The notes under the pieces are model-generated. The model was not told the DNA's origin. It worked only from the letters and a program-made list of their open reading frames with translations, and made no database searches. Positions 1-59,195 of a stretch of DNA of 64,000 bases are shown here, piece after piece (position 1 is the first letter of the stretch; the number at the start of each line of letters is the position of its first letter). Where the stretch lies: assembly GCF_024223415.1 (NCBI RefSeq), contig NZ_CP100500.1; one strand, 5' to 3'. A program made the position numbers and the translations under genes. This DNA comes from Escherichia coli. Lineage in GTDB: Bacteria > Pseudomonadota > Gammaproteobacteria > Enterobacterales > Enterobacteriaceae.

Positions 1-301
1 TGCATGGCGCAGTACGCCGGAAGAACTGGCTGCACGGATTGCGCGTGGTGACAGCAAGCTGGAAAAATATGAAGACCAGGCAGGCTTCAGCAAAGTTGCG
101 ACCCTGCAAGATATTAAAGATAACGACTACGTGCTGACGCCGGGCCGCTATGTGGGTGCAGCCGAGCAGGAAGAGGACGGCGTGGCATTTGAGACAAAAA
201 TGCGGGAGTTGTCGAAGACGTTGTTTGAGCAGATGAAGCAGGCGGAAGAACTGGATTGTGCGATTCGCCAGAATCTGGAGGCGCTGGGTTATGGGGAGTA
301 A
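1..301 (+). CDS. hsdM: Type I restriction-modification methyltransferase subunit HsdM, C-terminal 99 codons only (5' end lies upstream of window)
   Basis: Open frame from window edge to TAA at 299-301; translation ...IKDNDYVLTPGRYVGAAEQEEDGVAFE... resembles HsdM C-terminal region; immediately followed by an overlapping hsdS start. Confidence 0.75.
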   Translation, partial: AWRSTPEELAARIARGDSKLEKYEDQAGFSKVATLQDIKDNDYVLTPGRYVGAAEQEEDGVAFETKMRELSKTLFEQMKQAEELDCAIRQNLEALGYGE

Positions 302-1604
302 TGCTATTACAACAATAATTGGTGAACACTTGCTGATTAGAAATGGCAAATCTTCGCCATCAAGAGCCATAACAGGAGAATATCCTGTTTATGGTTCAAA
401 TGGAATAATAGGTTATTCAGATGAATATAACGCTAATGAAAATACAATAATTATCGGGCGTGTTGGGTCATATTGTGGTTCAGTTTATATTTCCGATAAA
501 AAATGTTGGGTCACTGATAATGCAATAATTGGAACCGCAAAGAATGAAAATGAAAGTCATTTTTGGTTCTATCTTTTAAAAAAAATAGATTTGAACAATT
601 ATAGTACTGGTTCAGGCCAACCTCTCATTAACCAAACAATAATTAATACAATATCCGTTACCATTCCTAAGCTCAGTGAGAAAAGAGTAGCCATTGGACA
701 TTTTTTACGCCACTTTGATCAAAAGATAAATTTATCTCTTAATATCAATCAATCCTTGGAACAAATGTCCCAAACCTTGTTCAAATCCTGGTTTGTGGAT
801 TTCGATCCGGTGATTGATAACGCGCTGGACGCGGGAAACCCAATCCCGGAAGCGATGCAATCTCGCGCAGAACTGCGTCAAAAAGTACGTAATAGTGCAG
901 ATTTTAAACCGCTTCTAGCGGAAATCCGCTCGCTTTTCCCAAGTGAATTTGAAGAAACCGAACCAGGATGGTTACCTAAGGGCTGGAAACATGGTAATTT
1001 AAATGATGTCACGAAGATCTTAAGTGGGTTTGCTTTTAAGAGTAAAGACTTTGGTGATGAAGGTAAAAGTGTCATAAAAATAAAGAACATTAATATCGAT
1101 AAAACAATTGATATAGATCATACTCAAAAAATTTCTGATATCGTAGCCAAAGACGTAAAGCGTTTTCAATTATTTGATGCCGATATTTTGATGGCTATGA
1201 CTGGTGCCACGGTCGGTAAATTTGGAATATTAGCATCAAAAAATCATGAAGAATATTATCTTAACCAACGAGTTGCGAAGTTTGAAACAGATAAAAAAGC
1301 TTACCTTTATTGTATATTGAATCAAGAAAGTACCGAAAGATTTATAATCAATACAGCTCAGGGCAGTGCACAACCAAATATCAGTGCTAAAGATATTTTA
1401 AGTATTCCACTCACACTACCATCAAACGAAATAATAACTATATTCAATACATTTGTTGATCCTTTATTCTACAGAATGATAGCGAATACAAAAGTTAGTT
1501 TAAGTCTAACAGAACTCCGCGACACCTTGCTCCCAAAACTCATCTCCGGCGAGCTCTCCCTGGAAGATCTTCCGGATCTCAGCACCAATACAGAAGCCGC
1601 ATAA
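291..1604 (+). CDS. hsdS: Type I R-M specificity subunit HsdS (two AT-rich target-recognition domains flanking a conserved central region)
   Basis: ORF track 258..1604; ATG at 291 overlaps the hsdM stop (preferred start, 258 is an alternative). Central conserved segment LFKSWFVDFDPV and C-terminal LPKLISGEL repeat typical of HsdS; TRD-like AT-rich blocks on both sides. Confidence 0.8.
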   Translation: MGSNAITTIIGEHLLIRNGKSSPSRAITGEYPVYGSNGIIGYSDEYNANENTIIIGRVGSYCGSVYISDKKCWVTDNAIIGTAKNENESHFWFYLLKKIDLNNYSTGSGQPLINQTIINTISVTIPKLSEKRVAIGHFLRHFDQKINLSLNINQSLEQMSQTLFKSWFVDFDPVIDNALDAGNPIPEAMQSRAELRQKVRNSADFKPLLAEIRSLFPSEFEETEPGWLPKGWKHGNLNDVTKILSGFAFKSKDFGDEGKSVIKIKNINIDKTIDIDHTQKISDIVAKDVKRFQLFDADILMAMTGATVGKFGILASKNHEEYYLNQRVAKFETDKKAYLYCILNQESTERFIINTAQGSAQPNISAKDILSIPLTLPSNEIITIFNTFVDPLFYRMIANTKVSLSLTELRDTLLPKLISGELSLEDLPDLSTNTEAA

Positions 1605-1612
1605 CGCATTTT

Positions 1613-1637
1613 GCCCCTGTAAAATCAGGGGCTTTCT
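1613..1637 (+). terminator. Stem-loop GCCCCTG-TAAAAT-CAGGGGC followed by TTTCT, immediately after hsdS stop
   Basis: Perfect 7-bp inverted repeat with 6-nt loop and short T-run seen directly in sequence; would separate hsdMS from hsdR transcription. Confidence 0.4.
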
Positions 1638-1698
1638 GGTAAGGTTTTCTACTGATACGGGAATGCTTACCAGAAATTAGCCAGGGTTGGAGCGCGAT

Positions 1699-4600
1699 AT
1701 GAGTCTCTCTTTCAGTGAAGCAAAATTAGAACAAGCGATCATTGAACTGCTGCAGGATCAGGGATATCAACACCTGATCGGCGATAATGTCCCACGTTCA
1801 AGTCTCGATCAGGTCATCATCGAAGACGATCTCCGTCATTATTTAGCGGCACGCTACCAGCCTGATGGCATTACTGAAGAAGAGATTCAACGGCTGATCA
1901 AACAGTTCACCACGCTTCCGGCCTCCGACCTTTATGAAAGCAACAAAACATTTTGTCGCTGGCTGGCAAATGGTTTTCTGTTCAAACGCGACGATCGGCA
2001 ACAAAAAGATCTCTATATTGAATTGCTCGACACCCGGCATCTACCCGCCGCACTGCGCCAGATATTTGACACCGACGATGTCCCGTTGCAACAGGCGGCG
2101 GAACTCCCGCCTTCCTATATTAATCCGCCGCTTAACCGGATTAAGATTGTTAACCAGCTTAAAATCTCCGGTAAAGATAATCAGACTCGTATTCCTGACG
2201 GCATTCTCTATATCAACGGTCTGCCACTGGTCGTCTTTGAATTTAAAAGTGCGGTGCGCGAGCAAGAAGCCAGTATTGGCGATGCCTGGAAGCAGCTCTG
2301 TAAACGCTATCGCCGGGATATTCCGCAACTGTTTATCTACAACGCGCTCTGCGTTATCAGCGATGGCGTAAATAACCGGATGGGCAACCTGTTTGCGCCC
2401 TATGAATACTTTTACTCATGGCGCAAAGTCACCGGTAATGAAAACCGTGAACAGGACGGAATTCCATCATTGCACTCAATGATTCAGGGGCTGTTTCATC
2501 CGGTACGTCTGCTGGACGTGATTAAAAACTTTATCTGCTTCCCGGATAAAGCCAAGCACGAAGTAAAAATTTGCTGCCGATATCCGCAGTACTATGCCGC
2601 CCGCAAACTCTATTACAGCATCAAGCAAGCGCGTAAACCTTTCGGTAGCGGTAAAGGCGGCACCTACTTTGGCGCAACGGGCTGTGGCAAAAGTTACACC
2701 ATGCAATTTTTAACGCGTCTTTTGATGAAGAGCGTGGAGTTTGCCAGCCCGACCATTGTTTTGATCACCGACCGCACCGATCTGGACGATCAGCTTTCTG
2801 CGCAAATGTGCAACGCCAAAAATTACATTGGCGACGACACCATCGTTCCTGTTACCAGCCGTGAAGATTTGCGTAATCAACTGGCGGGACGCAATAGTGG
2901 CGGTGTATTCCTGACAACGATCCATAAATTCACCGAAGACACCGAACTCCTTTCTGAACGCAGCAATATCATTTGCATCTCGGACGAAGCACATCGCAGC
3001 CAGGTTAACCTCGACCAGAAAGTCATCGTCGATAAAGAAAGCGGAAAAGTGCGCAAAACTTATGGCTTTGCGAAATACCTGCACGATTCACTGCCAAACG
3101 CCACCTATGTTGGCTTTACCGGCACACCGATTGACGCGACGCTCGATGTCTTCGGTGAGGTGATCGACAGTTACACCATGACCGAATCCGTTCAGGATGA
3201 AATCACTGTACGCATCGTGTACGAAGGCCGTGCGGCTAAAGTGATCCTGGACTCCAGTAAACTGGAAGAAGTTGAAAAGTATTACGAAGAGTGCGCAAAC
3301 GCAGGCACCAATGAGTGGCAAATCGACGAAAGCAAAAAAGCCACCGCAACCATGAATGCGGTACTGGGTGATGAAGATCGGTTAAAAGCCCTCGCGGAAG
3401 ATTTTGCCAAACATTATGAAAAACGCGTAGACGAAGGTTCCACCGTAAAAGGCAAAGCCATGTTTGTTTGTGCCAGCCGTGAAATTGCCTGGGATTTCTA
3501 CCGTCAGCTTAAAGCTATTCGCCCTGCCTGGTTTGAAGTGAAGCAAGCACCCGATGGCGTCGTCCTGACGGAACAGGAGCAGAAAGAGTTACCGCCTTCA
3601 GAAATGGTGAAGATGGTCATGACGCGCGGTAAAGATGACGACGAGGCGCTTTATGATTTACTGGGCACAAAAGAATATCGTAAAGAGCTGGATAAACAGT
3701 TTAAAAACGCTAAATCGAATTTCAAAATTGCCATTGTTGTTGATATGTGGCTGACCGGTTTCGACGTCCCGGAACTGGATACCATCTATATTGATAAACC
3801 CTTACAAAAACATAATCTTATCCAGACCATTTCTCGCGTTAACCGTAAACTGGAAGGCAAAAGTAAAGGGTTAGTGGTGGACTACATCGGCATTAAAAGT
3901 CAGATGAACCAGGCACTGGCAATGTATTCCCGCATTGATGCCACCAACTTTGAAGATATTCAGCAATCGGTAATAGAAGTTAAAAACCATCTCGATTTGT
4001 TGGGGCAAGTCTTTTACGAATTTGACAGTCGGGATTATTTTAGTGGTGAGCCACAAGCGCAATTATCCTGCCTCAACCGCGCGGCGGAATTTGTTCTGCG
4101 TACCCAGAAAGTTGAACGTCGTTTTATGGGACTGGTTAAACGCATGAAAGCCGCCTACGACGTCTGCTGCGGCAGCGAAGCATTATCACAGACAGAACGT
4201 GACTATATTCACTATTATCTTGCTGTTCGTTCAATTGTTTTCAAACTGACGAAAGGTGACGCACCGGATGTCACCCAGATGAATGCACGCGTTCGTGAAA
4301 TGATTGCAGAAGCGTTAAAAGCTGATGGCGTAGAAGAGATTTATTTTCTTGGCGATAAAAAAGCGGAATCCATCGATATTTTTGACGAAGATTATCTGGC
4401 ACGAATTAACAAGATCAAACTTCCGGCAACGAAGATCCAGTTATTACAAAAATTACTGGAAAAAGCGATCAGCGACTTCAAGAAAGTGAACCAGTTGCAA
4501 GGGATTAACTTCACCCGCCGCTTCCAGGCAATTATAGATCGTTATAATGAGCGGCGAGAAGATGATGTACTCAACGGTGAAGAATTCGATACATTCAGTC

Positions 4601-4962
4601 AGGAAATGACCGATATTATCTATGATATTAAAACCGAAATGGGCACCTGGGCCGATTTAGGCATTGATATTGAAGAAAAAGCGTTTTTCGACATTCTTGC
4701 TCATATGCGCGATAAATATCAGTTCACCTATGACGATGAAAAAATGCTGTCACTGGCAAAAGAGATGAAAAGCGTGGTTGACAACACATCGAAATATCCT
4801 GACTGGAGTAAACGTGATGATATTAAAGCGAAACTGAAAGTTGAACTTATTCTGCTTCTACACAAGCATAAGTTCCCGCCAGTAGCGAATGATGATGTTT
4901 ATATGGGTGTGCTGGCACAGGCAGAGAATTTTAAAGAACACCATATGAGTGCTTTAAATTAA
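1699..4962 (+). CDS. hsdR: Type I restriction enzyme R subunit HsdR (PD-(D/E)xK nuclease plus SF2 helicase motor)
   Basis: ORF track 1687..4962 (TTG); ATG at 1699 with GGAG 7 nt upstream preferred. Motifs: nuclease LPLVVFEFK, helicase motif I GATGCGKS, motif II ISDEAHRSQ, motif III FTGTPID. About 1087 aa. Confidence 0.85.
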   Translation: MSLSFSEAKLEQAIIELLQDQGYQHLIGDNVPRSSLDQVIIEDDLRHYLAARYQPDGITEEEIQRLIKQFTTLPASDLYESNKTFCRWLANGFLFKRDDRQQKDLYIELLDTRHLPAALRQIFDTDDVPLQQAAELPPSYINPPLNRIKIVNQLKISGKDNQTRIPDGILYINGLPLVVFEFKSAVREQEASIGDAWKQLCKRYRRDIPQLFIYNALCVISDGVNNRMGNLFAPYEYFYSWRKVTGNENREQDGIPSLHSMIQGLFHPVRLLDVIKNFICFPDKAKHEVKICCRYPQYYAARKLYYSIKQARKPFGSGKGGTYFGATGCGKSYTMQFLTRLLMKSVEFASPTIVLITDRTDLDDQLSAQMCNAKNYIGDDTIVPVTSREDLRNQLAGRNSGGVFLTTIHKFTEDTELLSERSNIICISDEAHRSQVNLDQKVIVDKESGKVRKTYGFAKYLHDSLPNATYVGFTGTPIDATLDVFGEVIDSYTMTESVQDEITVRIVYEGRAAKVILDSSKLEEVEKYYEECANAGTNEWQIDESKKATATMNAVLGDEDRLKALAEDFAKHYEKRVDEGSTVKGKAMFVCASREIAWDFYRQLKAIRPAWFEVKQAPDGVVLTEQEQKELPPSEMVKMVMTRGKDDDEALYDLLGTKEYRKELDKQFKNAKSNFKIAIVVDMWLTGFDVPELDTIYIDKPLQKHNLIQTISRVNRKLEGKSKGLVVDYIGIKSQMNQALAMYSRIDATNFEDIQQSVIEVKNHLDLLGQVFYEFDSRDYFSGEPQAQLSCLNRAAEFVLRTQKVERRFMGLVKRMKAAYDVCCGSEALSQTERDYIHYYLAVRSIVFKLTKGDAPDVTQMNARVREMIAEALKADGVEEIYFLGDKKAESIDIFDEDYLARINKIKLPATKIQLLQKLLEKAISDFKKVNQLQGINFTRRFQAIIDRYNERREDDVLNGEEFDTFSQEMTDIIYDIKTEMGTWADLGIDIEEKAFFDILAHMRDKYQFTYDDEKMLSLAKEMKSVVDNTSKYPDWSKRDDIKAKLKVELILLLHKHKFPPVANDDVYMGVLAQAENFKEHHMSALN

Positions 4963-4995: not shown

Positions 4996-5083
4996 ATTCT
5001 GAATTAACGTTAATTTCTCTTCCAGATCTTTCCAGTAACGCTTTTATTATTTTCTATTTTTAGCTGGACTATCCCTGTATTTA

Positions 5084-5099
5084 CTGATGATATATCCAG
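5084..5099 (+). promoter_or_regulatory. Putative LexA (SOS) box CTGATGATATATCCAG upstream of symE
   Basis: Matches CTG-N10-CAG architecture with AT-rich centre; symE is a known SOS-induced gene in K-12. Confidence 0.4.
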
Positions 5100-5103
5100 G
5101 TAT

Positions 5104-5181
5104 TTAGCGCGGTGCGGATGTGCGCCAACACACCCGCACCGCTCATCACAATCACTATTTTCAAGGAATAGCAGTTATGAC
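5104..5181 (-). ncRNA. symR: SymR antisense sRNA (antitoxin of type I TA pair symER); coordinates approximate
   Basis: By position only: region antisense to symE 5' UTR and start codon, includes inverted repeat GCGGTGCGG...CCGCACCGC (5108-5142). Ends not determinable from sequence. Confidence 0.35.
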
Positions 5182-5515
5182 TGACACGCATTCTATTGCA
5201 CAACCGTTCGAAGCAGAAGTCTCCCCGGCAAATAACCGCCAATTAACCGTGAGTTATGCGAGTCGCTACCCGGATTACAGCCGTATTCCCGCCATCACTC
5301 TGAAAGGTCAGTGGCTGGAAGCCGCCGGTTTTGCTACCGGCACGGCGGTAGATGTCAAAGTGATGGACGGCTGTATTGTCCTCACCGCCCAACCACCCGC
5401 CGCCGAAGAGAGCGAACTGATGCAGTCGCTACGCCAGGTGTGCAAACTGTCGGCACGTAAACAAAAGCAGGTGCAGGAGTTTATTGGGGTGATTAGTAGC
5501 AAAACGCCACGCTAA
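5177..5515 (+). CDS. symE: SymE, SOS-induced toxin-like protein (type I toxin-antitoxin)
   Basis: ORF track 5120..5515; internal ATG at 5177 preceded by AGGAA gives the 112-aa product [15 protein letters not shown]... matching my recollection of K-12 SymE. Confidence 0.85.
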
Positions 5516-5523
5516 GTTTCTCT

Positions 5524-5546
5524 CCCCTTCCCCATACGTGAAGGGG
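5524..5546. terminator. Hairpin CCCCTTC-(9 nt)-GAAGGGG between convergent symE and yjiS
   Basis: 7-bp inverted repeat seen in sequence between two convergent stop codons; no clear U-run on either strand. Confidence 0.3.
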
Positions 5547-5557
5547 AATTGCCCCCA

Positions 5558-5722
5558 TCACTCCACATCCTCCTTGCGTAACCCAATATCCCTCAACCGT
5601 TCATCACTCATTTGCTGTAACACTCGTCGGGTCTGCATTTGTCGCCGCCAACGCCTCACCGCCTGCCAGAGTTGCACAAGTCTGATAAACGGCGTTTTGG
5701 CTTTGTTTTCGTGAAATTCCAT
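5558..5722 (-). CDS. yjiS: Small DUF1127-family protein YjiS (54 aa)
   Basis: Hand-translated minus-strand ORF MEFHENKAKTPFIRLVQLWQAVRRWRRQMQTRRVLQQMSDERLRDIGLRKEDVE; below the ORF-track length cutoff; matches recalled K-12 YjiS. Confidence 0.75.
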   Translation of the reverse strand: MEFHENKAKTPFIRLVQLWQAVRRWRRQMQTRRVLQQMSDERLRDIGLRKEDVE

Positions 5723-5898
5723 CTGCTGCCTCCTCATCTTTCAGAGGCTTCATCATCCGCCTTCTGGCAGTTCACAATACAGATGCAAATATTAGTTTTA
5801 TTTAACATACAGACAGGTTAAAACAGCATCTGCATCCGGTTTTTTAGCCTCATCTGTACCGGTTTTTCTCTCTGTATGGTCTAAATAAGGAATACAGC

Positions 5899-7311
5899 AT
5901 GACGCGTTATCAACATCTGGCAACTCTGCTTGCCGAGCGGATTGAGCAAGGGCTGTATCGTCACGGGGAGAAATTGCCGTCGGTGCGCAGCTTAAGTCAG
6001 GAGCACGGCGTCAGCATCAGCACCGTGCAGCAGGCGTATCAGACGCTGGAGACGATGAAGCTCATCACTCCGCAGCCGCGTTCGGGGTATTTTGTCGCAC
6101 AACGTAAAGCCCAGCCGCCAGTGCCGCCGATGACGCGTCCGGTGCAGCGCCCGGTGGAAATTACCCAGTGGGATCAGGTACTGGATATGCTGGAGGCGCA
6201 TAGCGACAGTTCCATTGTTCCGTTAAGCAAAAGCACGCCGGATGTCGAAACGCCCAGCCTGAAACCACTCTGGCGGGAGCTAAGCCGGGTGGTACAGCAT
6301 AATCTGCAAACCGTTCTCGGTTATGACTTGCTAGCCGGTCAGCGGGTATTGCGCGAGCAGGTTGCCCGCCTGATGCTCGACAGCGGCTCGGTGGTCACCG
6401 CCGATGACATCATTATCACCAGCGGCTGCCATAACTCGATGTCGCTGGCGTTAATGGCGGTGTGTAAACCGGGCGATATTGTCGCGGTCGAATCCCCCTG
6501 TTATTACGGTTCGATGCAGATGCTGCGCGGCATGGGTGTGAAAGTGATTGAAATCCCAACCGATCCAGAAACTGGCATCAGCGTTGAAGCGCTGGAACTG
6601 GCGCTGGAACAGTGGCCGATTAAAGGCATCATTCTGGTGCCAAACTGTAATAATCCGCTGGGATTTATTATGCCGGACGCGCGCAAACGGGCCGTTCTCT
6701 CTCTCGCTCAGCGTCATGATATTGTGATTTTTGAAGATGATGTCTACGGCGAACTGGCAACGGAGTATCCGCGCCCGCGGACCATTCATTCCTGGGATAT
6801 CGACGGGCGAGTGCTGTTGTGCAGCTCGTTCAGTAAAAGTATTGCTCCAGGCCTGCGGGTGGGTTGGGTCGCACCGGGGCGCTATCACGATAAACTGCTG
6901 CATATGAAATACGCCATCAGCAGCTTTAATGTACCGTCCACGCAAATGGCGGCGGCAACGTTTGTGCTGGAAGGTCACTATCATCGCCATATCCGGCGGA
7001 TGCGGCAGATCTATCAGCGCAATTTGGCGCTTTATACCTGCTGGATACGGGAATATTTTCCCTGCGAAATCTGTATTACGCGCCCGAAAGGCGGATTTTT
7101 ACTGTGGATCGAATTGCCTGAACAGGTCGATATGGTCTGCGTCGCGCGGCAGCTATACCGCATGAAAATCCAGGTGGCGGCAGGCTCGATTTTCTCGGCT
7201 TCCGGCAAATACCGTAATTGTCTACGTATCAACTGCGCTTTGCCGCTCAACGAAACCTATCGCGAAGCACTGAAGCAAATTGGCGAGGCCGTGTATCGGG
7301 CAATGGAATAA
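5899..7311 (+). CDS. yjiR: MocR-type transcriptional regulator (GntR HTH fused to aminotransferase-like domain)
   Basis: 470-aa ORF; N-terminal GntR-type HTH (LPSVRSLSQEHGVSISTVQQAY) and class I aminotransferase-like C-terminal domain. Confidence 0.9.
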   Translation: MTRYQHLATLLAERIEQGLYRHGEKLPSVRSLSQEHGVSISTVQQAYQTLETMKLITPQPRSGYFVAQRKAQPPVPPMTRPVQRPVEITQWDQVLDMLEAHSDSSIVPLSKSTPDVETPSLKPLWRELSRVVQHNLQTVLGYDLLAGQRVLREQVARLMLDSGSVVTADDIIITSGCHNSMSLALMAVCKPGDIVAVESPCYYGSMQMLRGMGVKVIEIPTDPETGISVEALELALEQWPIKGIILVPNCNNPLGFIMPDARKRAVLSLAQRHDIVIFEDDVYGELATEYPRPRTIHSWDIDGRVLLCSSFSKSIAPGLRVGWVAPGRYHDKLLHMKYAISSFNVPSTQMAAATFVLEGHYHRHIRRMRQIYQRNLALYTCWIREYFPCEICITRPKGGFLLWIELPEQVDMVCVARQLYRMKIQVAAGSIFSASGKYRNCLRINCALPLNETYREALKQIGEAVYRAME

Positions 7312-7427
7312 ATTCGAATTAGTGGCGAAGCACCTGATTTATTCTCACGAATCGCCTGTGACTCGTTTTATCTTTGCAGGATCATAGCCACGTTCCGGCA
7401 TGGCTTAGTAAAGTGCGCTTCGTTCAT

Positions 7428-7526
7428 GCCGGATGCGGCGTGAACGCCTTATCCGGCTTACAAATCGCGCAAATTCAATAGATTGCAGAGGTAATGTAGG
7501 TCTGATAAGCGTAGCACATCAGGCAG
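7428..7526. repeat. BIME: two REP elements (GCCGGATGCGGCGTGAACGCCTTATCCGGC... and TGTAGGTCTGATAAGCGTAGCACATCAGGCA)
   Basis: Canonical enterobacterial REP consensus recognisable by eye between convergent yjiR and rpnD. Confidence 0.6.
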
Positions 7527-7551
7527 CTTTGCGTTTGTCATCAGTCTCTGA

Positions 7552-8496
7552 TTAGTACTCGATCCATGGATCGCGCTTGCTTTCAGGCAAGGGTTGCTCT
7601 AATGCCTGCATTTGCTCTGCCGAAAGTCCAGTATATCGTTGTATCCATTCAGGATCCGCACCGTTCTGCAAAAGCAATCTAAGGAGGCGTTGTTCCCCTT
7701 CTTCTTTCCCCTTTTCCATCCCTAACAGCCATCCATCATTATGAATTCGCTCTGCAATCGTCATTATTCGCTCCCTGTGTTGTGGCATTCGACTGGTTAG
7801 TTCGCTGATAAACTCTTTAAAACTCGCTTCATCGCCAGCCAGTAAAATGTAATTTAACAGCGCGGTTATCTGGCTGTCATTAGCGCACCCTGTAACCAGT
7901 AATACTGCCAGTTGATCAATAAGCCCCATTAGATCGCGCTGGCGAATATGCTTTTGGATCAACTCCAACAGGGCGACTCTGCGGTGCTGCACAATCTCGT
8001 CGTCTGGCACGACAGTGATATCCACCAGCGGGAACGCGGCATTATAAAGTTTCCGTGCGGTAGTCGGGTCGGCAAATTCGTCCAGCCAGCACAGGGACCA
8101 GGGGTAAGGACTACGGCTACCGTGATAAAACAGCATCGGGATGACCAGCGGTAGCTGCCGGCGTTTATCATGCTCGATATGGCGCTGCATCACCGCCATG
8201 GAATAGCGCATCAGGCGAAAGGCCATATGAATATCCTCACGGCTCTGATGTTCAATCACCACATAAATATAGCCATCGCCTTCGCGGGTCTTTACCGACC
8301 ACAGAATATCGGAATGTAGCGCCCGCAATTTTTCATCGACAAAGCTGGCGGATTCCAGTTTTAAGCTGTCGAGATCGCACAGTTCCCGTAAATCTTTAGG
8401 TAAGTGGATCTCCATAAAATCCCGCGCGGTGTCAGGGTGCATGAGAAAGGATTTAAATAATGCGTCATGCGGCGTGCTGGTCGTGAAGTTTGTCAT
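7552..8496 (-). CDS. rpnD: Rpn-family recombination-promoting nuclease (YhgA-like), intact 314 aa
   Basis: 314-aa ORF with YhgA-like N-terminal nuclease region ([23 protein letters not shown]); position corresponds to K-12 yjiP/yjiQ. Confidence 0.8.
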
Positions 8497-8962
8497 GGCG
8501 ATCCGTCACCTGTAGATAAGATGGCCCGACTGTAGCGACTAACAAAACCATTCTCACCCGGCAATTTCTCGTTCCCCGAGGTGCTTTCCAGGCTATTTTT
8601 ATTCTTCTGCAAACGATACATTTTTCCGGAAACAGGCTCGCGTTTTACATGTCCTGTACCCGGCAGATATTCCCCTTTCCACCGCGCTCTTTTGATTAAC
8701 CGCAAATTTTAATTACACTTAAGGTGTATATTTTCTATGCAACCCATCAATTAAAGAGGTGTAATGTGCTGATGACTATTTGTAATCGTTATACATTCTG
8801 ACCTGGAGTCAGAAGGTATTTCTCTGTCTGTGTGTTCACAGGCAGTGTGGTTGATTACATGAAATTCAGTACATTTGTCCTTCTCGCCTACCTTTCGTCA
8901 TTACCGACGGTATTGAATTTCGTTTTCCCCGTTGGGGTTCTCCGGACAAGGAGTTGTTTGTT

Positions 8963-19056: not shown

Positions 19057-22000
19057 ATGGCTTCGACAAATGCGCATCAAATAAAAAATAATGATCAAAA
19101 CTCTTTATGTGGTCTGGGTGACAAAATACGCCGCCTGACCGCCGGAGTTTGTTTATTTACACAATTTTTTTTCCCCGTCATGGCGACGGCACAAAATGTG
19201 GTACACGCTAAACCTCAGACGACAGTTTCATCAGCCCCCCCTCTACTAGAAAATAATACGGTGCCTTACACGCTTGGTGCGCTGGAATCAGCGCAAAGCG
19301 TTGCTGATCGATTCGGTATTTCACTGGAGGAGCTTCGTCGTCTTAATCAGTTCCGTACTTTTGCTCGCGGCTTTGATAACGTGCGCCAGGGTGAGGAACT
19401 GGATGTTCCGGCAACAACCTCGCAGAAAAGCCATGAGCAACAAAATGCCATACCGCCTGCGAATGGCGAAAACACGCTGGAGAATCAAATAGCCAGCACC
19501 TCGCAGCGAGTTGGCACTCTGCTTTCACAAGATATGAATAGTGAGCAGGCCAGCGGAATGGCGCGTGGTTGGGCGTCTTCAGAAGCCTCTGGCGCGATGA
19601 CTGATTGGTTAAATAACTTTGGCACGGCGAAAATCTCTCTGGGTGTGGATGAAGATTTTAGCCTGAAAAATTCGCAATTCGACTTCCTGCATCCGTGGTA
19701 TGACACACCCGATTATCTGCTCTTCAGCCAGCATACCCTTCACCGAACAGACGATCGTACCCAGATCAACACCGGTTTGGGCTGGCGTCATTTCACCTCC
19801 AGCTGGATGTCAGGCATCAACCTGTTTTTTGACCACGACCTGAGCCGCTATCACTCCCGCGCGGGGCTTGGCGCAGAATACTGGCGTGATTATCTGAAGT
19901 TGAGCAGCAACGCTTATATTGGCCTGACCGGCTGGCGTAGCGCACCAGAATTGGATTATGACTTCGAAACCCGCCCGGCCAACGGTTGGGATTTACGCGC
20001 GGAAGGCTGGTTACCTGCCTGGCCACAACTGGGGGGAAAACTGGTCTATGAACAATACTATGGCGATGAAGTGGCGCTGTTTGACAAGAACGATCGCCAA
20101 AGTAATCCCCATGCTATTACCGCGGGCCTCAACTATACCCCCTTCCCGCTTCTGACTCTCAGTGCGGAACAGCGTCAGGGGAAGCAAGGTGAAAATGACA
20201 CACGTTTTGCCGTTGATCTGACCTGGCAACCCAGCAGTTCAATCCAGAAACAGCTTAACCCGGACGAAGTGGCCGGACGGCGCAGTCTGGCCGGTAGCCG
20301 TTATGACCTGATTGATCGCAACAACAACATCGTTCTGGAATACCGCAAGAAAGAGCTGATTCGCCTGAGTCTGCTGGATCCGGTGAAAGGGAAGTCTGGA
20401 GAAATAAAACCGCTGGTTTCCTCGCTACAGACCAAATATGCCCTTAAAGGCTATAACATCGAAGCCGCTGCGCTGGAAGCTGCCGGAGGTAAAGTCAGCA
20501 CTTCTGGAAAAGATATCACGGTCACGCTGCCAGGTTACCGCTTCACTAACACCCCAGAAACCGATAATACATGGTCGATAGACGTTACCGCCGAGGATGT
20601 AAAAGGTAACATGTCTCGGCATGAACAAAGCATGGTAGTTATTCAGGCTCCGACATTAAGCCAGAAAGATTCTCTATTATCCGTTAATCCGCTAACCGTG
20701 GCTGCAGATAAAAAATCGACGACCACATTGACCGTTACTGCGCACGATTCCGACGGAACTCCGGTGCCGGGGCTGGCGCTGCAAACCCGCAGTGAAGGCG
20801 TTCAGGATATCACCCTGTCTGACTGGACAGATAACGGTGATGGTAGTTACACACAGATACTGACCGCCGGAACGACATCAGGTTCAGTAACACTGATGCC
20901 GCAAATTAACGGTGAGAGTGCGGTAAAAGAATCCATCGTCGTTAATATCGTCCCTGTTGTCTCATCCCGCGATCATTCTTCAATAACAATTGATAACGTA
21001 TCGTATTATGCCGGAGACGACATCAAGGTTAGGGTGGAACTGAAAGACGAAAGTAATCAACCGGTTGCATATCAAAAAGAGGAATTGGTAAAAGCCGTTA
21101 CTGTCGAAAACAGCAAACCTGGCACCACGATTATCTGGCACGAAGAGCAGCCGGGGGTTTATACCGCGAATTATCCGGCCCATAAGCAAGGGACTGCACT
21201 AAGGGCACAACTTAGCCTTCACAACTGGAATGCTCCACTGCAATCGCATATTTATAACATTGAGGCAAACCAGAATAAGGCTCGCGTCGCCACATTATCA
21301 GCGACAAATAATGACGTTTACGCCGATAAAAAGACATTTAATACCCTCACTATCAACGTCACTGATGAGAGTGATAATCCCCTGATAAATCATCAGGTCA
21401 CCTTTAAGAATGAAAAAGGAAGCGCGGAATTTGTCGAACCGCCGCAGCAAAATACGGATGGATACGGTGTTGCCACAATCAACATGGTAAGTCAGGTTGC
21501 GGAAGAAAATACGATTAGCGCCACGCTGCCAAATGGTTTCTCACAACGGATAATTGCGAAATTCGTTAGCGATTCGAGTACGCCAAAATTCAAACAACTG
21601 GTTGCCGATCCAGATACCATTATTGCTGGCAACAGCCAGGGCAGTACTCTGACCGCCATCGTCACAGACTTTCATAACAACCCGTTAAAAGATATGAAAG
21701 TGAATTTTGTGGCACCTGGTGGCTCGCAACTGGACAACACGACCGCCACAACAGACCAGTCCGGTATTGTGCGGGTGCACCTGACCAGTTCAAAAGCTGG
21801 TAGCTATTCCGTCGATGCCTCGCTTGAGGTGGATAAAAATATTCACCAGTCGGTCACGATCACCGTGGTCCCAAACAGGGAACAATCGGTAATGACCTTG
21901 AATGCCGGGTCGGGCAGTGCGATCGCTAACAATACAAATATCGTTACCCTGACTGCCAGTGTGAAAGATGTTTATGGACACCCGTTGCCGGATGAGGATG

Positions 22001-24297
22001 TGAAATTTACCTTGCCAGCCTCCATGACCGGGAACTTCACGCTAAGTAGTGAAACCGCCCGCACCGATGCAAACGGTGATGCCGTGGTCACATTGCGAGG
22101 CACAAAAGCGGGTGAGTTTACAGTTACGGCGACGCTGACCAGAAATAATACCGTTGCTTATCAGCAAGTCACTTTTATTGGGGATACAAACAGTGCGCAG
22201 CTCCAGCCGCTGACTGCCTCATTAAATTCCATTGTTGCGGGTAACAGTACGGGGAGTACCCTGACGGCAACGATCCTGGACGCTTACCAAAATCCGCTTA
22301 AAGACCAGTTGGTCACTTTCCAGAGTAACGATGTCACTCTAAGCGAAACAGAAGTCACCACCAATACGCTGGGTCAGGCGACGGTAACAATGACCAGCAA
22401 TATTGCCGGACAACATAACGTCGTGGTGAGCCGGAAAGCGCAAGCTTCCGATAATAAAACGTTTAGTTTATCAGTGCTGCCGGATGAAAGTTCGGCGAAG
22501 GTAATAAGTATAACCGGAGCCGAAAAAACGATAACGGTTGGCGAAAACATCACGCTACGGATACTCGTCCAGGACGCGTTTAACAATGTAATAGCGGGTC
22601 AACGCGTCAGATTAAGTGCGCAGCCAACAGCTAACATTACGATAGGCGATACGGCTTACACCGATAATAACGGTTATGCGTACGTTAACCTTATTAGCAC
22701 CCAGCCTGGGGTTTATCAGGTGACGGCAACGCTGGACAATAACAGTAGTAGTAAGGTTGACGTGAATGTGGCAAATGGCAAACTCGAGTTAACATCATCG
22801 AAGCCAGAAACCACGGTCCATAACAGTGAAGGTATTACGCTGACCGCAACGGCGAGAAATGCGCAGGGTGAATTGATGCCAGGGCAAATTATCACCTTTA
22901 GCGTAACGCCTGAAGGTGCAACGCTAAGCAATACAGGGGAAGTCCTTACTGACCAGTCAGGTCAGGCCAAAGTGACGCTGACCAGTGACAAAGTGAATGT
23001 CTATACCGTTACGGCCATAATGGGCAAAGATGTTCCCGTTCAGAGCCAGGTAACGGTTGCGGTTAAGGCAGATGCTAAAACGGCACATGTTGTGAGCGTC
23101 GTGGCTTCTCCTGACACCATCACCGCCGACGGCATCGATAGCAGCACCATCACTTCACGAGTAGAAGATGATTACGGATTCCCGGTTGAAGGTGTCGATG
23201 TTAGTCATGGCTTAGACACCAAAGGCAGCCCGGTAGTTAATATTCCAACTACGCGTACCGATCAGTCCGGGCAAGTCACGGCGACAATAACCAGTACATT
23301 GGCAGAAACCTTAACAGTCAATGTGCAAGTTCCTGGTACAGCCAACCAATCCGCAACCATTACATTGGTTGCCGGCACGGCCGATGAAAGTAAGTCAATT
23401 TTGAAATCCGATGTTGACACTCTGAAGGCTGACTACCAGCAGAGCGCAAAACTTACGCTAACATTGCAAGACAAGTACGGTAACCCGATAGTGACGTCTG
23501 ATCATCTGGAATTTGTCCAGTCAGGCCCCTTCGTGAACTTTCTCAAGTTGAGCGATATTGATTACAGCCAAAGAAATTATGGCGAGTACACCGTGACTGT
23601 CACTGGCGGAAAAGAGGGAACAGCGACACTCATTCCCATGCTGAACGGGGTTCATCAGGCAAACTTAAGCATATCGCTGAATCTCATCCAATCGATAAAA
23701 GAAATGTCCGGTCATGTCACTGCAAACAACCATACCTTCTCCACGGCTAAATTCCCGAGCGAAGGCTTTGCAGGGGCGTATTACACACTCAACAATGATA
23801 ACTTTGAAGCGGGTAAAACCGTTGATGATTATATGTTTTCAAGTTCACAGAGTTGGGTGTCTGTCGATGCTTCAGGTAAGGTTTCTTTCGCAAATATCGG
23901 CGATCAAACGTCAGTCACAATAAGCGCTGTTCCCCGACAAGGAGGTACAACCTACCAGACCTTAATTAAGCTGAAAGGCTGGTGGGTGAATAATGGAAAT
24001 CATACCAATATCTGGCTAGCTGCCAATGCGCTCTGTCATGCTAAAAATGATGGATATAATCTTCCTGGCATCACACATTTGACGTCTGGTGAAAACAAAC
24101 GCACGCAGGGATCACTGTATGGTGAATGGGGGAACGTTGGAGCGTTTTCCAGTAATTCGCAATTTACACCGGGAGCTTACTGGACAAGTGAACCTGATGA
24201 TTACAGTCGGCACTACTATGTGCAGATGCTAACCGGTATGACCGGAAGCGACGCTGATTCCAGCCCCCAACTGACCGCCTGCCGTAAATCACTTTAA
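19057..24297 (+). CDS. Intimin/invasin-family inverse autotransporter adhesin (1746 aa): LysM, beta-barrel, about 12 Big_1 Ig-like repeats, C-type lectin-like tip
   Basis: N-terminal LysM-like segment (FGISLEELRRLNQFRT), intimin-type beta-barrel region, repeated roughly 100-aa units with TLTAT/VTAT and GxAxV motifs, Cys-containing C-terminal domain; GGAAGG RBS. Confidence 0.85.
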   Translation: MASTNAHQIKNNDQNSLCGLGDKIRRLTAGVCLFTQFFFPVMATAQNVVHAKPQTTVSSAPPLLENNTVPYTLGALESAQSVADRFGISLEELRRLNQFRTFARGFDNVRQGEELDVPATTSQKSHEQQNAIPPANGENTLENQIASTSQRVGTLLSQDMNSEQASGMARGWASSEASGAMTDWLNNFGTAKISLGVDEDFSLKNSQFDFLHPWYDTPDYLLFSQHTLHRTDDRTQINTGLGWRHFTSSWMSGINLFFDHDLSRYHSRAGLGAEYWRDYLKLSSNAYIGLTGWRSAPELDYDFETRPANGWDLRAEGWLPAWPQLGGKLVYEQYYGDEVALFDKNDRQSNPHAITAGLNYTPFPLLTLSAEQRQGKQGENDTRFAVDLTWQPSSSIQKQLNPDEVAGRRSLAGSRYDLIDRNNNIVLEYRKKELIRLSLLDPVKGKSGEIKPLVSSLQTKYALKGYNIEAAALEAAGGKVSTSGKDITVTLPGYRFTNTPETDNTWSIDVTAEDVKGNMSRHEQSMVVIQAPTLSQKDSLLSVNPLTVAADKKSTTTLTVTAHDSDGTPVPGLALQTRSEGVQDITLSDWTDNGDGSYTQILTAGTTSGSVTLMPQINGESAVKESIVVNIVPVVSSRDHSSITIDNVSYYAGDDIKVRVELKDESNQPVAYQKEELVKAVTVENSKPGTTIIWHEEQPGVYTANYPAHKQGTALRAQLSLHNWNAPLQSHIYNIEANQNKARVATLSATNNDVYADKKTFNTLTINVTDESDNPLINHQVTFKNEKGSAEFVEPPQQNTDGYGVATINMVSQVAEENTISATLPNGFSQRIIAKFVSDSSTPKFKQLVADPDTIIAGNSQGSTLTAIVTDFHNNPLKDMKVNFVAPGGSQLDNTTATTDQSGIVRVHLTSSKAGSYSVDASLEVDKNIHQSVTITVVPNREQSVMTLNAGSGSAIANNTNIVTLTASVKDVYGHPLPDEDVKFTLPASMTGNFTLSSETARTDANGDAVVTLRGTKAGEFTVTATLTRNNTVAYQQVTFIGDTNSAQLQPLTASLNSIVAGNSTGSTLTATILDAYQNPLKDQLVTFQSNDVTLSETEVTTNTLGQATVTMTSNIAGQHNVVVSRKAQASDNKTFSLSVLPDESSAKVISITGAEKTITVGENITLRILVQDAFNNVIAGQRVRLSAQPTANITIGDTAYTDNNGYAYVNLISTQPGVYQVTATLDNNSSSKVDVNVANGKLELTSSKPETTVHNSEGITLTATARNAQGELMPGQIITFSVTPEGATLSNTGEVLTDQSGQAKVTLTSDKVNVYTVTAIMGKDVPVQSQVTVAVKADAKTAHVVSVVASPDTITADGIDSSTITSRVEDDYGFPVEGVDVSHGLDTKGSPVVNIPTTRTDQSGQVTATITSTLAETLTVNVQVPGTANQSATITLVAGTADESKSILKSDVDTLKADYQQSAKLTLTLQDKYGNPIVTSDHLEFVQSGPFVNFLKLSDIDYSQRNYGEYTVTVTGGKEGTATLIPMLNGVHQANLSISLNLIQSIKEMSGHVTANNHTFSTAKFPSEGFAGAYYTLNNDNFEAGKTVDDYMFSSSQSWVSVDASGKVSFANIGDQTSVTISAVPRQGGTTYQTLIKLKGWWVNNGNHTNIWLAANALCHAKNDGYNLPGITHLTSGENKRTQGSLYGEWGNVGAFSSNSQFTPGAYWTSEPDDYSRHYYVQMLTGMTGSDADSSPQLTACRKSL

Positions 24298-58800: not shown

Positions 58801-59195
58801 GCTTTAACCCCGGCTTGTGACGCGCCCGCGCAGTGGTTGAGCAGCGGGAACATAAAGCATTCTGTTTTACCGGAGCCGGTACCGGTAGCAACCAGCGTCG
58901 GCTGTGGCGCGTCGCTTCCCAGACGCTGAAATGCCCGGGCCTGATGCGCGTGCGGCGGGAACGGCAGCGTCAGATTAGGGAAGAAATTCAGCGGTAAGTC
59001 ACTTTTACGAAACGGCAACTGGGCGGAAAGGTATGGTCCTTTCAGCAGCGTTTCGGGCTGGGCCAGAAATTGCTCCAGCATTGAGACATTATCGTTATTC
59101 TCACCGTTAAACAGCGGACTGTTTAGCGGGAACGCCGCCCGTAAAAAGGCGGCAACGCTGTCGGCGACCTGCCGACTGACAACGGATGGCAGCAT
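52854..59195 (-). CDS. Giant multidomain SF2 (DExH, Lhr-like) helicase, 2113 aa, with zinc-ribbon/Cys clusters (DUF1998-like) and C-terminal Vsr/DUF559-like endonuclease motif; second gene of candidate defence operon
   Basis: Motif I ATGTGSGKT (58863-58883), Ia YPMNALATDQ, II VVDELH (58485-58496), V LEMGIDVGD and VI QRIGRAGR about 800 aa later; Cys clusters CSHCN...CPKCG and CSC...DGCYRC; FLDGFAFH...RQAIRDSG near aa 1740-1800 (about 53796-53978); start codon overlaps stop of upstream gene. Confidence 0.85.
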   Translation of the reverse strand: MLPSVVSRQVADSVAAFLRAAFPLNSPLFNGENNDNVSMLEQFLAQPETLLKGPYLSAQLPFRKSDLPLNFFPNLTLPFPPHAHQARAFQRLGSDAPQPTLVATGTGSGKTECFMFPLLNHCAGASQAGVKAIIIYPMNALATDQASRFAKTIASDTQLHGKVTVGLFVGDSEIEPSKKMSAEKVITCKHTLRESPPDILLTNYKMLDYLLMRPGDQPLWRYNQPGSLRYLVVDELHTFDGAQGSDLACLVRRLKHHIGVDNQRFACVGTSATVGDELGQLLDYAKTIFDQPFTDDAVIREDRYTAAEYLQDYAIAYSQYPGPEVASALDPQSYATPVAYLNGQIPLWFPDSDLQLPDDLESDDGREKRIALGSLLRRHSVMHVLLHDLQGGILSERECLENLQVMLAESADHARRVLQSILALIAQARLEVPETEHDRQKRLQAKKARPVLPFVQLRSQLWLREMRRLVASVAKTPRLVFADDVAVEDREHYLPVIHCRDCHATGWASLRHGQSVQLETDLDGIYRQFFEKGRSIVLAFPDNNEKAVSGAHQKLCPTCLKLNRQSSVQCGHCGHTELLQVLIPDMLKERKDELEFANECPYCNSKQGISILGSRAASLSAVMIHQLYGSQFNEHKKLITFSDSVQDAAHRASFFTARTWPLMIRGQIASVLGEKETLPLDAFAARVCQQTRERSPDDAHFAANFIAPNMQWLNDYQMLKNEGKLAENSDLPELVSLRLDWEVYSEFTLRARIGRTLEATGYAVAGVDKERFNPAITALHQQLCEELGDEMSGVSVEQVAHLALGVIWYQRQAGAVMHPAFESYRRDGTTFMMTQKERTSRYMPSIGPKTRKPAYASFEKINGFHRLIGAKSNPSWYQHWINRTLSNGNNLFISSVAETVLRRLFTALKIAGVVKDFDTKGREAWGLVPSALVVSRDVVQLNCSCCREVVRAPADQGWQWRNAPCLSLRCEGRYQEVDNTATWRWENMDIARVQGAEHTGLLSREDREATEKSFYRGNQPWNINLLSATPTLEMGIDVGDLSTVLLCSVPPAQANYLQRIGRAGRKDGNALNITVAEGNPHDQFFFEEPLEMMQGQVQAPGVFLNATAILERQLAAFCMDNWVKTGVPESAICKNVKQMLDELEFGRKSGFPYNLLRYIEQHHAEIAAQFTAIFPDLAAETRQQLLSYLQGAPGQRSLVQRIEEALKLLVEDRKSLRSRIDKLKRSIDKLENAPRDQNFDSDMRELTSERQALMALVNQINNKQTLNFLTDEGLLPNYAFPEAGITLRSVLWRRKEGGEAREYQNTTFEYERPASTALAELAPLNNFYAGGHKVEIEQIDLKVSEPENWRICSHCNYSENIDQTGDQHKYCPKCGTPGWADAGQKTTLLKLRQVYARASARDSQISDDSDSREPAFFQRQLLVSFEKEDVSAAYAIEEGEVPFGFEFLSKVTLRDINFGKMADDANELMIAGEAKKRTGFKVCLGCGMVQRPRDHEPRHDLSCKYRTEPEKAKFEDYLYLYRQLESEALRILLPVSSYSNDRVVEASLGAAIQLGLKHYFKGNVDHLKGVVYREPENEGESWRQYLVIYDTVPGGTGSLKELMRTPDNLLKLLELAYQAIVECSCNNDTHKDGCYRCVYAYRDRGRMKYVSRDQARLLLAKILQARDSIRVIDSIKNISLEAMMGSELEKRFISCLQENKNLIVSRSYAHQGAGWIINTRSEPMMSWHLKAQVDLGAKEAVGIPCRPDYVLYPLMQSDVIKPVAIFLDGFAFHKNSVAEDVQKRQAIRDSGNFWVWTVTWADLKEPGLKHVQDVLGLGHNPDMKQPKFYNLFHDTNFAALEASFRERNSFALLLDYLADPGGRTQLWQRMAAAHAWVWLDVKKSQDAGTKQKYAYEMQENAPAWRLAELLPDEPFVFGGLLDSCNSSQQFIELASVLPQQAIKPTTSVAQMRSWLRLHICFDDRYTQDDGYEAGLNGFWRLVNLLQFLPDMTFTSRKAVHLPQESVDTKVSATPEAVPETDESWAEIIEFGLLSAEEIALLQSHSLSAPTLGYELQNDEGEIIAEADLAWPSQKWALIIDNQEFIPLFTTRGWHVAFGPIDENTLQHLSGGDK

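What the first reader, a model, noticed from the sequence alone, without database searches (positions are those of the whole stretch)
7552..8496. Intact Rpn-family nuclease gene at the yjiP/yjiQ position
A single 314-aa YhgA-like ORF lies where I recall K-12 having split yjiP/yjiQ fragments. Rpn proteins promote RecA-independent recombination, and an intact copy next to variable loci may matter for local genome plasticity.
Basis: partly seen in the sequence, partly recalled or inferred. Interest (0 to 1): 0.25.

Follow-up and report, generated by a model that had tools for sequence, protein, structure and literature searches.

The report
Intact rpnD nuclease gene, already known
This is the normal, intact form of the E. 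coli gene rpnD (formerly yjiP/yjiQ), a DNA-cutting toxin with its own antidote encoded inside the same gene. Only the laboratory strain K-12 and a few other lineages carry a broken copy, and this was published in 2015.

Summary
Window 7552-8496 (- strand) is one 314-aa ORF with a full-length PF04754 (YhgA-like/Rpn) domain (E=1e-86). It lies between yjiR and mdtM, the position of K-12 rpnD (old names yjiP/yjiQ).

K-12 MG1655 annotates rpnD (b4584) as a pseudogene. The cause is a single TAG at codon 104, where the window has CAG.

None of this is new. Kingston et al. [quoted passage not shown] The exact 314-aa protein is already on 375 public contigs. The K-12 TAG 56-mer occurs in only 339 of 5,426 complete genomes, and the eight of these that were sampled all carry laboratory-strain names.

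The window allele keeps all residues that are essential in RpnA. It also keeps the internal promoter-like motif, the Shine-Dalgarno sequence and Met245 that define the nested antitoxin RpnS. It differs from K-12 by two extra four-residue repeats in the RpnS helix, which is the known hypervariable feature (alleles of 306, 314 and 318 aa).

The best reading is an ordinary RpnL/RpnS toxin-antitoxin nuclease at the border of the restriction island. The idea that it drives local genome plasticity was tested in 2015 and found no support. Interest is low.

The parts
7552..8496 (-). rpnD full-length ORF (RpnD_L): 314 aa, ATG start, TAA stop
   Evidence: ORF list. Pfam PF04754 E=1e-86. TIGR01784 above cutoff. 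92% identical to the K-12 RpnD translation, against 49-62% to RpnA, B, C and E. Identical protein annotated in SCU-316 and seen on 375 public contigs.
7867..8475 (-). N-terminal YhgA-like / PD-(D/E)XK nuclease domain (residues 8-210). It includes D11, D63, E82, Q84, R94 and the PDDEI motif (D165).
   Evidence: Pfam match over 8-210. All six positions are invariant in the alignment with K-12 RpnA-E. In RpnA, D11A, D63A, E82A and Q84K abolish activity, and D165A is hyperactive. dN/dS is 0.08-0.19 against seven other alleles over codons 1-244.
8185..8187 (-). Codon 104: CAG (Gln) here, TAG (amber) in K-12. This single difference makes K-12 rpnD a pseudogene.
   Evidence: Pairwise DNA alignment. 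K-12 annotation 'internal stop' / pseudogene. Population counts.
7851..7880 (-). Candidate internal promoter for the short rpnD_S transcript (ATGACA, 18 nt, TG-TAAATT)
   Evidence: Consensus scan; the number of sites found is not above chance on its own. The same motif (AATGACAG...CTGTT(T/A)AATTA) is conserved at the homologous position in K-12 rpnA, rpnB and rpnE. In rpnB of EDL933 an internal TSS was mapped 650 bp after the start codon (PMC10469882), about 7 nt downstream of this -10 element. Use of the promoter in rpnD is inferred, not shown.
7762..7776 (-). Internal ribosome-binding site AGGGAG (7771-7776) and internal start codon ATG (7762-7764, Met245) of RpnD_S
   Evidence: Sequence. 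Met245 is invariant in all Rpn paralogues, with AAGGAG or AGGGAG 6 nt upstream in rpnA, rpnB, rpnD and rpnE (rpnC differs). The element is identical in 8 of 9 rpnD alleles. The corresponding RBS and start were shown to make RpnA_S, and all five K-12 RpnS proteins were detected.
7552..7764 (-). Nested in-frame ORF for RpnD_S (70 aa), the predicted cognate antitoxin. This is the hypervariable C-terminal domain.
   Evidence: 75.7% DNA identity to K-12 here, against 95.1% in the N-terminal domain. Weak sequence match to the RpnA_S crystal structure 7TH0 (E=0.022). Published RpnS function.
7696..7731 (-). Three four-residue repeat units, [12 protein letters not shown], starting 11 residues after Met245. 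K-12 has one unit (YIKG) and the common 318-aa alleles have four.
   Evidence: 24-nt indel against K-12. Alleles of 306, 314 and 318 aa differ by multiples of 4 aa at this spot. Unit boundaries. This matches the published four-residue repeat variation, which begins 8-20 residues after the RpnS start. TRF does not detect the repeats at DNA level.

Best explanation
The ORF is the intact, ordinary allele of the E. coli chromosomal gene rpnD (formerly yjiP/yjiQ).

It encodes two proteins in one reading frame. RpnD_L (314 aa) is a PD-(D/E)XK DNA endonuclease that damages DNA and is toxic when made in excess. RpnD_S (70 aa) is translated from internal Met245, probably from a short transcript that starts at an internal promoter. 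It has the same sequence as the C-terminal tail of RpnD_L and is predicted to bind that tail and block the nuclease.

The number of four-residue repeats in the first RpnS helix sets which RpnS fits which RpnL. There are three units here, one in K-12 and four in many other strains.

The pair most likely works as a toxin-antitoxin type anti-phage module at the edge of the restriction (immigration control) island.

Shown here: the identity of the gene, its orthology and synteny, its intactness, conservation of the catalytic residues, conservation of the internal start elements, and the allele lengths.

Shown in the literature for the repaired K-12 allele: toxicity, SOS induction and stimulation of recombination on overexpression.

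Shown only for the paralogues RpnA, RpnB, RpnC and RpnP2, and inferred for RpnD: antitoxin action, repeat-number specificity and phage defence.
For: Family membership. Synteny with K-12 rpnD, and K-12 pseudogene status. One amber codon is the only disruptive difference. The protein is 92% identical to RpnD and at most 62% to the other paralogues, and all RpnA-essential residues are conserved. Purifying selection acts on the nuclease domain (dN/dS 0.08-0.19). The internal SD and ATG are conserved across paralogues and alleles. The internal promoter motif sits where rpnB has a mapped internal TSS. Allele lengths of 306, 314 and 318 aa differ by 4-aa units at the published position. The literature shows that repaired YjiP is toxic, induces SOS and raises RecA-independent recombination. 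It also shows that RpnS proteins are antitoxins, that repeat number gives specificity, and that RpnP2 defends against T-even phages. The window has restriction genes to its left (hsdS, hsdR), which is a defence-island context.
Against: No experiment addresses this allele. Phage defence has been shown only for the plasmid-borne RpnP2, not for RpnD. In MG1655 the long RpnD protein was not detected, but that strain has the amber codon, so the result says nothing about intact alleles. PADLOC (2023) has no model that matches the protein. The structure model was too poor (pLDDT 54) to confirm the folds. The promoter scan alone is not above chance. Two large lineages have lost the gene's integrity (K-12 amber; O157:H7-type 25-nt duplication), and some strains lack it altogether. 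It is therefore dispensable.
Confidence: 0.85

Rival explanations
1. RpnD is mainly a recombination-promoting nuclease. In this reading its intact copy drives replacement and rearrangement of the adjacent variable restriction island.
For: Overexpressed repaired YjiP raises RecA-independent recombination 4.5- to 5-fold. The gene sits at the proximal border of the immigration control region. In some strains the DNA on both sides of rpnD differs: mdtM is missing and yjiR is truncated or replaced by GmrSD.
Against: Kingston 2015 tested this and found no evidence that YjiP targets replacements to the island. Deleting rpnA-D left basal recombination unchanged. The effect needs overexpression in a recA-deficient background. 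The authors of the 2023 study consider the recombination effect secondary to DNA damage by a toxin.
Confidence: 0.08
2. It is the transposase of a mobile element, as the database labels 'putative transposase' and 'ISNCY family transposase' suggest.
For: The Pfam name Transposase_31. The best NCBIfam hit by score is labelled 'ISNCY family transposase'.
Against: That NCBIfam model scores 393 bits, below its cutoff of 583. There are no terminal inverted repeats or flanking direct repeats beyond 12-17-nt chance matches. There is a single copy in the window. The gene occupies a fixed syntenic position across thousands of genomes. The 2023 study found no inverted repeats, no target-site duplications and no evidence of autonomous transposition for rpn genes.
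Confidence: 0.02
3. The ORF is intact but functionally idle: a poorly expressed remnant on its way to decay, as in K-12 and O157:H7.
For: There are independent inactivations in two lineages and complete loss in others. No sigma-70-like promoter was found upstream for the long transcript.
Against: dN/dS of 0.08-0.19 over the nuclease domain, at dS 0.11-0.17, shows long-term purifying selection. All catalytic residues are kept. Length variation in the tail stays in frame, in 12-nt steps. The exact protein is found on 375 contigs.
Confidence: 0.05

Closest known systems
E. coli K-12 RpnD (YjiP/YjiQ, b4584) and its repaired form yjiPc (Kingston et al. 2015, 2017)
   Same: Same locus between yjiR and mdtM. 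92% protein identity, the same catalytic residues and the same internal SD and ATG. The repaired K-12 protein is toxic, induces SOS and raises RecA-independent recombination.
   Different: K-12 has TAG at codon 104; the window has CAG. K-12 has one four-residue unit (YIKG), the window three ([12 protein letters not shown]). The last ~50 residues are the most diverged part (75.7% DNA identity over the RpnS region).
RpnA (YhgA) of E. coli K-12, the biochemical exemplar, with RpnA_S crystal structure 7TH0
   Same: Same domain architecture. D11, D63, E82, Q84, R94 and PDDEI are conserved, and the internal start is at the aligned Met.
   Different: Only 57% identical. The window protein scores below the RpnA equivalog cutoff (382.6 against 583 bits). 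It sits at a different chromosomal locus. RpnD_S has a 13-residue C-terminal extension that RpnA, B, C and E lack. The match to 7TH0 is marginal (E=0.022).
RpnP2 (plasmid-borne Rpn of ECOR13), the Rpn shown to defend against T-even phages
   Same: Same family and the same gene-within-gene toxin-antitoxin organisation, according to PMC10400941.
   Different: RpnP2 is plasmid-borne, and its sequence was not compared here. Phage defence has not been shown for chromosomal RpnD.

Membership tests
Rpn / YhgA-like family (PF04754, TIGR01784) | Full-length match to the family profile above the curated cutoff | tested here: met
   PF04754: 290 bits against 21, profile positions 1-202 of 203. TIGR01784: 172 bits against 52.
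Rpn / YhgA-like family (PF04754, TIGR01784) | PD-(D/E)XK active-site residues (RpnA D11, D63, E82, Q84, R94) and the PDDEI motif | tested here: met
   All are invariant columns in the alignment with K-12 RpnA-E. Their roles come from RpnA mutagenesis.
Rpn / YhgA-like family (PF04754, TIGR01784) | [quoted passage not shown] | tested here: met
   AGGGAG, 6 nt, then ATG at Met245. Met245 is conserved in all five paralogues, the SD in rpnA, B, D and E, and both in 8 of 9 rpnD alleles. The sequence feature is met; translation itself cannot be tested here.
Rpn / YhgA-like family (PF04754, TIGR01784) | Internal promoter for a short transcript | tested here: inconclusive
   A promoter-like site lies at 7880-7851 (the count is not above chance). 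Its motif is conserved in rpnA, B, D and E and sits about 7 nt upstream of the position homologous to the mapped rpnB internal TSS. It lies in conserved coding sequence, so its conservation is not independent evidence.
Rpn / YhgA-like family (PF04754, TIGR01784) | [quoted passage not shown] | tested here: met
   Alleles of 306, 314 and 318 aa differ by 4-aa multiples starting 11 residues after Met245.
Rpn / YhgA-like family (PF04754, TIGR01784) | RpnS three-helix-bundle fold and PD-(D/E)XK core fold | tested here: inconclusive
   The AlphaFold2 model from an 11-sequence alignment had mean pLDDT 54, too low for a fold search. The sequence match to RpnA_S 7TH0 is only E=0.022. The full-length protein finds no PDB entry at E<=0.01.
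Rpn / YhgA-like family (PF04754, TIGR01784) | DNA endonuclease activity, toxicity, and neutralisation by the cognate RpnS | not testable with these tools
   Toxicity and SOS induction are published for repaired K-12 RpnD. Antitoxin action is published for RpnA, B, C and P2 only.
rpnD orthologue (as opposed to rpnA, B, C or E) | Conserved position between yjiR and mdtM, and highest identity to RpnD | tested here: met
   Synteny. 92% identity to RpnD, against 62, 57, 55 and 49% to RpnB, A, E and C.
RpnA equivalog (NF007361) | Score above the equivalog cutoff | tested here: not met
   382.6 bits against a cutoff of 583.
Insertion sequence / ISNCY transposase (NF007418) | Score above cutoff, terminal inverted repeats, target-site duplication, multiple copies | tested here: not met
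   393.4 bits against a cutoff of 583. No convincing flanking inverted or direct repeats. No second copy in the window.
Catalogued anti-phage defence systems (PADLOC-DB 2.0.0) | Match to a defence-protein model | tested here: not met
   0 families. The library dates from 2023, the same year Rpn defence was reported, and appears to hold no model for the family, so this says little.

The most novel reading that the evidence does not exclude
The most novel reading that the evidence does not exclude has two parts. First, intact RpnD alleles such as this three-repeat one may be active defence genes. Second, their nuclease may occasionally cause the deletions and replacements seen immediately next to rpnD in some strains: mdtM lost, yjiR truncated, or the whole block lost next to IS1. 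The state of rpnD would then co-vary with the architecture of the restriction-island border. Nothing here supports a causal link, and the one direct experiment (Kingston 2015) found no targeting.
Probability: 0.05. Interest if true: 0.4.

Novelty: already known. Interest (0 to 1): 0.07.

Why it matters
It matters little. The gene, its intact state in most strains, the K-12 premature stop, the nested antitoxin and the four-residue repeat polymorphism are all published. The exact protein is already in public databases under the family name. The practical point is only that K-12 is an atypical reference for this locus: it keeps the antitoxin part (RpnD_S) but not the toxin. Work on RpnD biology, including any phage-defence role, should therefore use an intact natural allele such as this one.

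Tried and rejected
1. Structure prediction from an 11-sequence alignment gave pLDDT 54. I did not run a fold search, because a low-confidence model gives meaningless matches. I ran no further search on a deeper alignment, because the answer would not change the verdict.

2. PDB sequence search. The full-length protein finds nothing at E<=0.01. The 70-aa tail finds designed ankyrin repeats through a short LLLxxGADP-like motif (summed E=1e-7, but each stretch has i-E of 26-290). I treat this as a motif resemblance, not homology. RpnA_S 7TH0 matches only at E=0.022.

3. PADLOC scan: no hit for the Rpn protein.

4. Tandem Repeats Finder on the tail: nothing. The repeat claim therefore rests on the protein pattern and on the in-frame 12-nt-multiple length differences between alleles.

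5. Search for inverted and direct repeats as insertion-sequence ends: only 12-17-nt chance-level matches. The transposon reading is rejected.

6. Supplement of the 2023 PNAS paper (for the published RpnD internal start and repeat alignment): not held.

7. Using the identity bands of a 131-nt query to count the three-repeat allele failed, because short 40-nt perfect matches fill the >=99% band. Only a rough split could be read from the evenly spaced sample: about 7% identical to the window, about 20% of the same length, about 40% 12 nt longer, and about 30% short alleles.

8. I did not determine gene integrity in every one of the 5,426 genomes. Only the two specific lesions were counted.

Full report
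**Observation.** The window has a single ATG-started ORF of 314 codons at 7552..8496 on the minus strand. It is a real gene. Pfam PF04754 (Transposase_31, 'YhgA-like') matches residues 8-210 across the whole profile at E=1e-86. NCBIfam TIGR01784 'Rpn family recombination-promoting nuclease/putative transposase' passes its curated cutoff. The RpnA equivalog and the 'ISNCY family transposase' models stay below theirs.

The flanking genes are yjiR (5899-7311, +) and mdtM (8954-10195, +), followed by yjiN, yjiM and yjiL. This is the order around rpnD in K-12 and in the 99.9%-identical strain SCU-316.

**Comparison with K-12.** NC_000913.3 annotates rpnD (b4584) as a pseudogene at 4568998-4569918. 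PGAP marks the same gene in an MG1655 derivative 'internal stop'. My alignment of the two genes shows that the only disruptive difference is codon 104: CAG in the window (8185-8187) and TAG in K-12. The lesion is a nonsense codon, not a split or a frameshift.

**Already published.** Kingston et al. [quoted passage not shown] They built a repaired allele, yjiPc. The window's exact 314-aa protein is in the public protein collection on 375 contigs, under the Rpn family name. It belongs to a 90% cluster of 3,918 members with lengths of 314 and 318 aa among others.

**Population check.**
- A 56-nt probe ending just past the K-12 TAG matches perfectly in 339 of 5,426 complete E. coli genomes. The eight of these in the evenly spaced sample (ER1709, MG1655 derivatives, JM109, JW-5 and others) carry laboratory-strain names, several of them known K-12 derivatives.
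- The same probe with CAG finds the locus in 4,201 genomes.
- A second, independent lesion exists. It is a 25-nt tandem duplication just after the internal start, seen in ERL03-1416. It is present in 279 genomes, and the sampled ones are O157:H7.
- Of nine alleles read in full, seven are intact.
- Some strains lack the gene. In isolate w264 the stretch from yjiA to mdtM holds only brnTA and an IS1 remnant.

**Anatomy.**
- The protein is 92% identical to the K-12 RpnD translation and 62, 57, 55 and 49% identical to RpnB, A, E and C. With the synteny, this makes it the rpnD orthologue.
- D11, D63, E82, Q84, R94 and the PDDEI motif are invariant in that alignment. In RpnA, the changes D11A, D63A, E82A and Q84K abolish all phenotypes, and D165A is hyperactive.
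- Over codons 1-244, dN/dS against seven other alleles is 0.08-0.19 at dS 0.11-0.17. This indicates long-term purifying selection.

**The gene within the gene.** Zhong et al. 2023 (PMC10400941) showed that rpn genes contain an internal promoter and an internal start. These produce RpnS, the C-terminal tail as a separate small protein, which binds and inhibits the toxic full-length nuclease RpnL. All five K-12 RpnS proteins were detected. Among the long forms, RpnD_L was not detected, as expected from the amber codon.

In the window, the equivalent elements are all present:
- AGGGAG (7776-7771) lies 6 nt before ATG (7764-7762, Met245). This opens a 70-aa in-frame ORF that ends at the same stop codon.
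- Met245 is invariant in all five paralogues, and an AAGGAG or AGGGAG element precedes it in rpnA, rpnB, rpnD and rpnE (rpnC has a different upstream sequence). The RBS and start are identical in 8 of 9 rpnD alleles.
- A promoter-like site (ATGACA, 18 nt, TG-TAAATT) lies at 7880-7851. The scan count is not above chance. However, the same motif is conserved in rpnA, rpnB and rpnE at the homologous position. In rpnB of EDL933, an internal transcription start was mapped 650 bp after the start codon (PMC10469882), about 7 nt downstream of that -10 element. By homology I place the rpnD_S start near 7844. This is an inference.

**The variable tail.**
- Against K-12, DNA identity is 95.1% in the nuclease domain, 75.7% in the RpnS part and 80.7% in the downstream intergenic region. 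The neighbouring genes are 95.7-98.4% identical.
- The window has 24 extra nucleotides. After [11 protein letters not shown] it reads [16 protein letters not shown], where K-12 reads YIKG-EQRI. The common 318-aa alleles (ST131, O111) read WLLG-RERG-RKEG-K(E/V)EG.
- These are the published four-residue repeats: one hydrophobic residue plus charged residues or glycine, starting 8-20 residues after the RpnS start. For RpnC, their number determines which RpnS neutralises which RpnL.
- Mosaic alleles exist. P0007 has the window-type repeat count with the K-12-type C-terminal end.

**Function.** Published for repaired RpnD: overexpression is toxic in recA-deficient cells, induces SOS, and raises RecA-independent recombination about 4.5- to 5-fold. 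Removing the last 45 residues lowers these effects.

Inferred from paralogues: antitoxin action of RpnS and repeat-number specificity come from RpnA, B, C and P2. Phage defence comes from RpnP2 only, against T-even phages, and it depends largely on the active site.

They tested it and found no evidence that YjiP targets replacements to the adjacent island. Deleting rpnA-D did not change basal recombination.

The transposase label fails on four counts. The ISNCY model is below its cutoff. There are no terminal repeats. There is no second copy in the window. The position is fixed across thousands of genomes.

**What did not work.** The AlphaFold2 model from a shallow alignment was poor (pLDDT 54), so the folds were not tested. 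PDB sequence searches gave only a marginal match to RpnA_S 7TH0 (E=0.022) and a short ankyrin-like motif resemblance. PADLOC has no model that matches. TRF does not see the 12-nt units. The PNAS supplement is not held.

**Verdict.** The gene is the ordinary intact allele of a described gene, and the contrast with K-12 was published in 2015. The best-supported mechanism is the RpnL/RpnS toxin-antitoxin nuclease, probably with a defence role, rather than a driver of local genome plasticity. Novelty: already known. Interest: low.

Noticed in passing
window 52854-59195 (-) and 59195-63967 (-): Two very large adjacent genes that share the base at 59195 (stop/start overlap). The first is a 2113-aa DEAD/Helicase_C/MZB (DUF1998) protein whose best PADLOC match is DruE (DruE3, E=4.6e-104). 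The second is a 1590-aa Eco57I-type methylase that matches the PADLOC type IIG restriction-methyltransferase model at E=4e-289. Together they look like a Druantia-like or type IIG-associated defence pair at the right end of the window.
   Followed up: partly
window 258-4962 and 5046-5898: The left end carries a type I restriction specificity subunit (258-1604) and an R subunit with a HindI-like C-terminus (1687-4962). These are followed directly by the symE-yjiS region. The K-12 block with yjiT, yjiV and mcrBC is absent: blastn jumps from K-12 locus position 10478 to 18080.
   Followed up: partly
window 19057-24297 (+): A 1746-aa inverse autotransporter (intimin/invasin type) with an IAT_beta domain, 8 Big_1 repeats and 7 Invasin_D3 repeats.
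   Followed up: partly
window 14122-16491 (+): A 789-aa pentapeptide-repeat protein. It was not examined further.
   Followed up: no
window 7410-7552: The intergenic stretch between yjiR and the 3' end of rpnD is a repeated extragenic (REP/BIME-like) element. This part of the query matches dozens of places per E. coli genome (median 28 places per genome for the whole query). It is only 80.7% identical to the K-12 counterpart.
   Followed up: partly
L013 755-1712 (strain ERL03-1416) and 279 genomes: rpnD has been inactivated independently in the O157:H7-type lineage. A 25-nt tandem duplication (GACGATTGCAGAGCGAATTCATAAT) right after the internal start shifts the frame of both RpnD_S and the tail of RpnD_L.
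   Followed up: yes
L008, L009, L010 (strains w264, N24, MS10858): The DNA that abuts rpnD varies between strains. In N24 and MS10858, mdtM is missing, so rpnD lies next to yjiN. On the other side, yjiR is either truncated right up to the rpnD 3' end or replaced by GmrSD/DUF262 genes. In w264 the whole island plus yjiR and rpnD is gone, leaving brnTA and an IS1 remnant next to mdtM.
   Followed up: partly
window 7640-7700 (RpnD_S residues ~19-40): The segment [22 protein letters not shown] resembles the ankyrin-repeat consensus helix-loop (..G..E.V.LLL..GADPN). It therefore pulls designed ankyrin proteins out of the PDB. No single aligned stretch is significant.
   Followed up: partly
window 5552-13760: The whole stretch next to the restriction island is only 95.7% identical to K-12. 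Identity rises from 95.7% in mdtM to 98.4% in yjiM and yjiL with distance from the island, and rpnD synonymous divergence is 0.11-0.17. This is higher than I would expect for the E. coli core genome (my own knowledge, not tested here). It is consistent with known hypervariability around hsd.
   Followed up: partly
literature (PMC5350276 vs PMC4498929): The 2017 Rpn paper describes RpnD as an active K-12 protein and says all constructs were amplified from MG1655 DNA, without mentioning the stop codon. Only the 2015 paper states that the tested allele was a synthesised repaired gene. A reader of the 2017 paper alone could wrongly conclude that K-12 rpnD is intact.
   Followed up: yes
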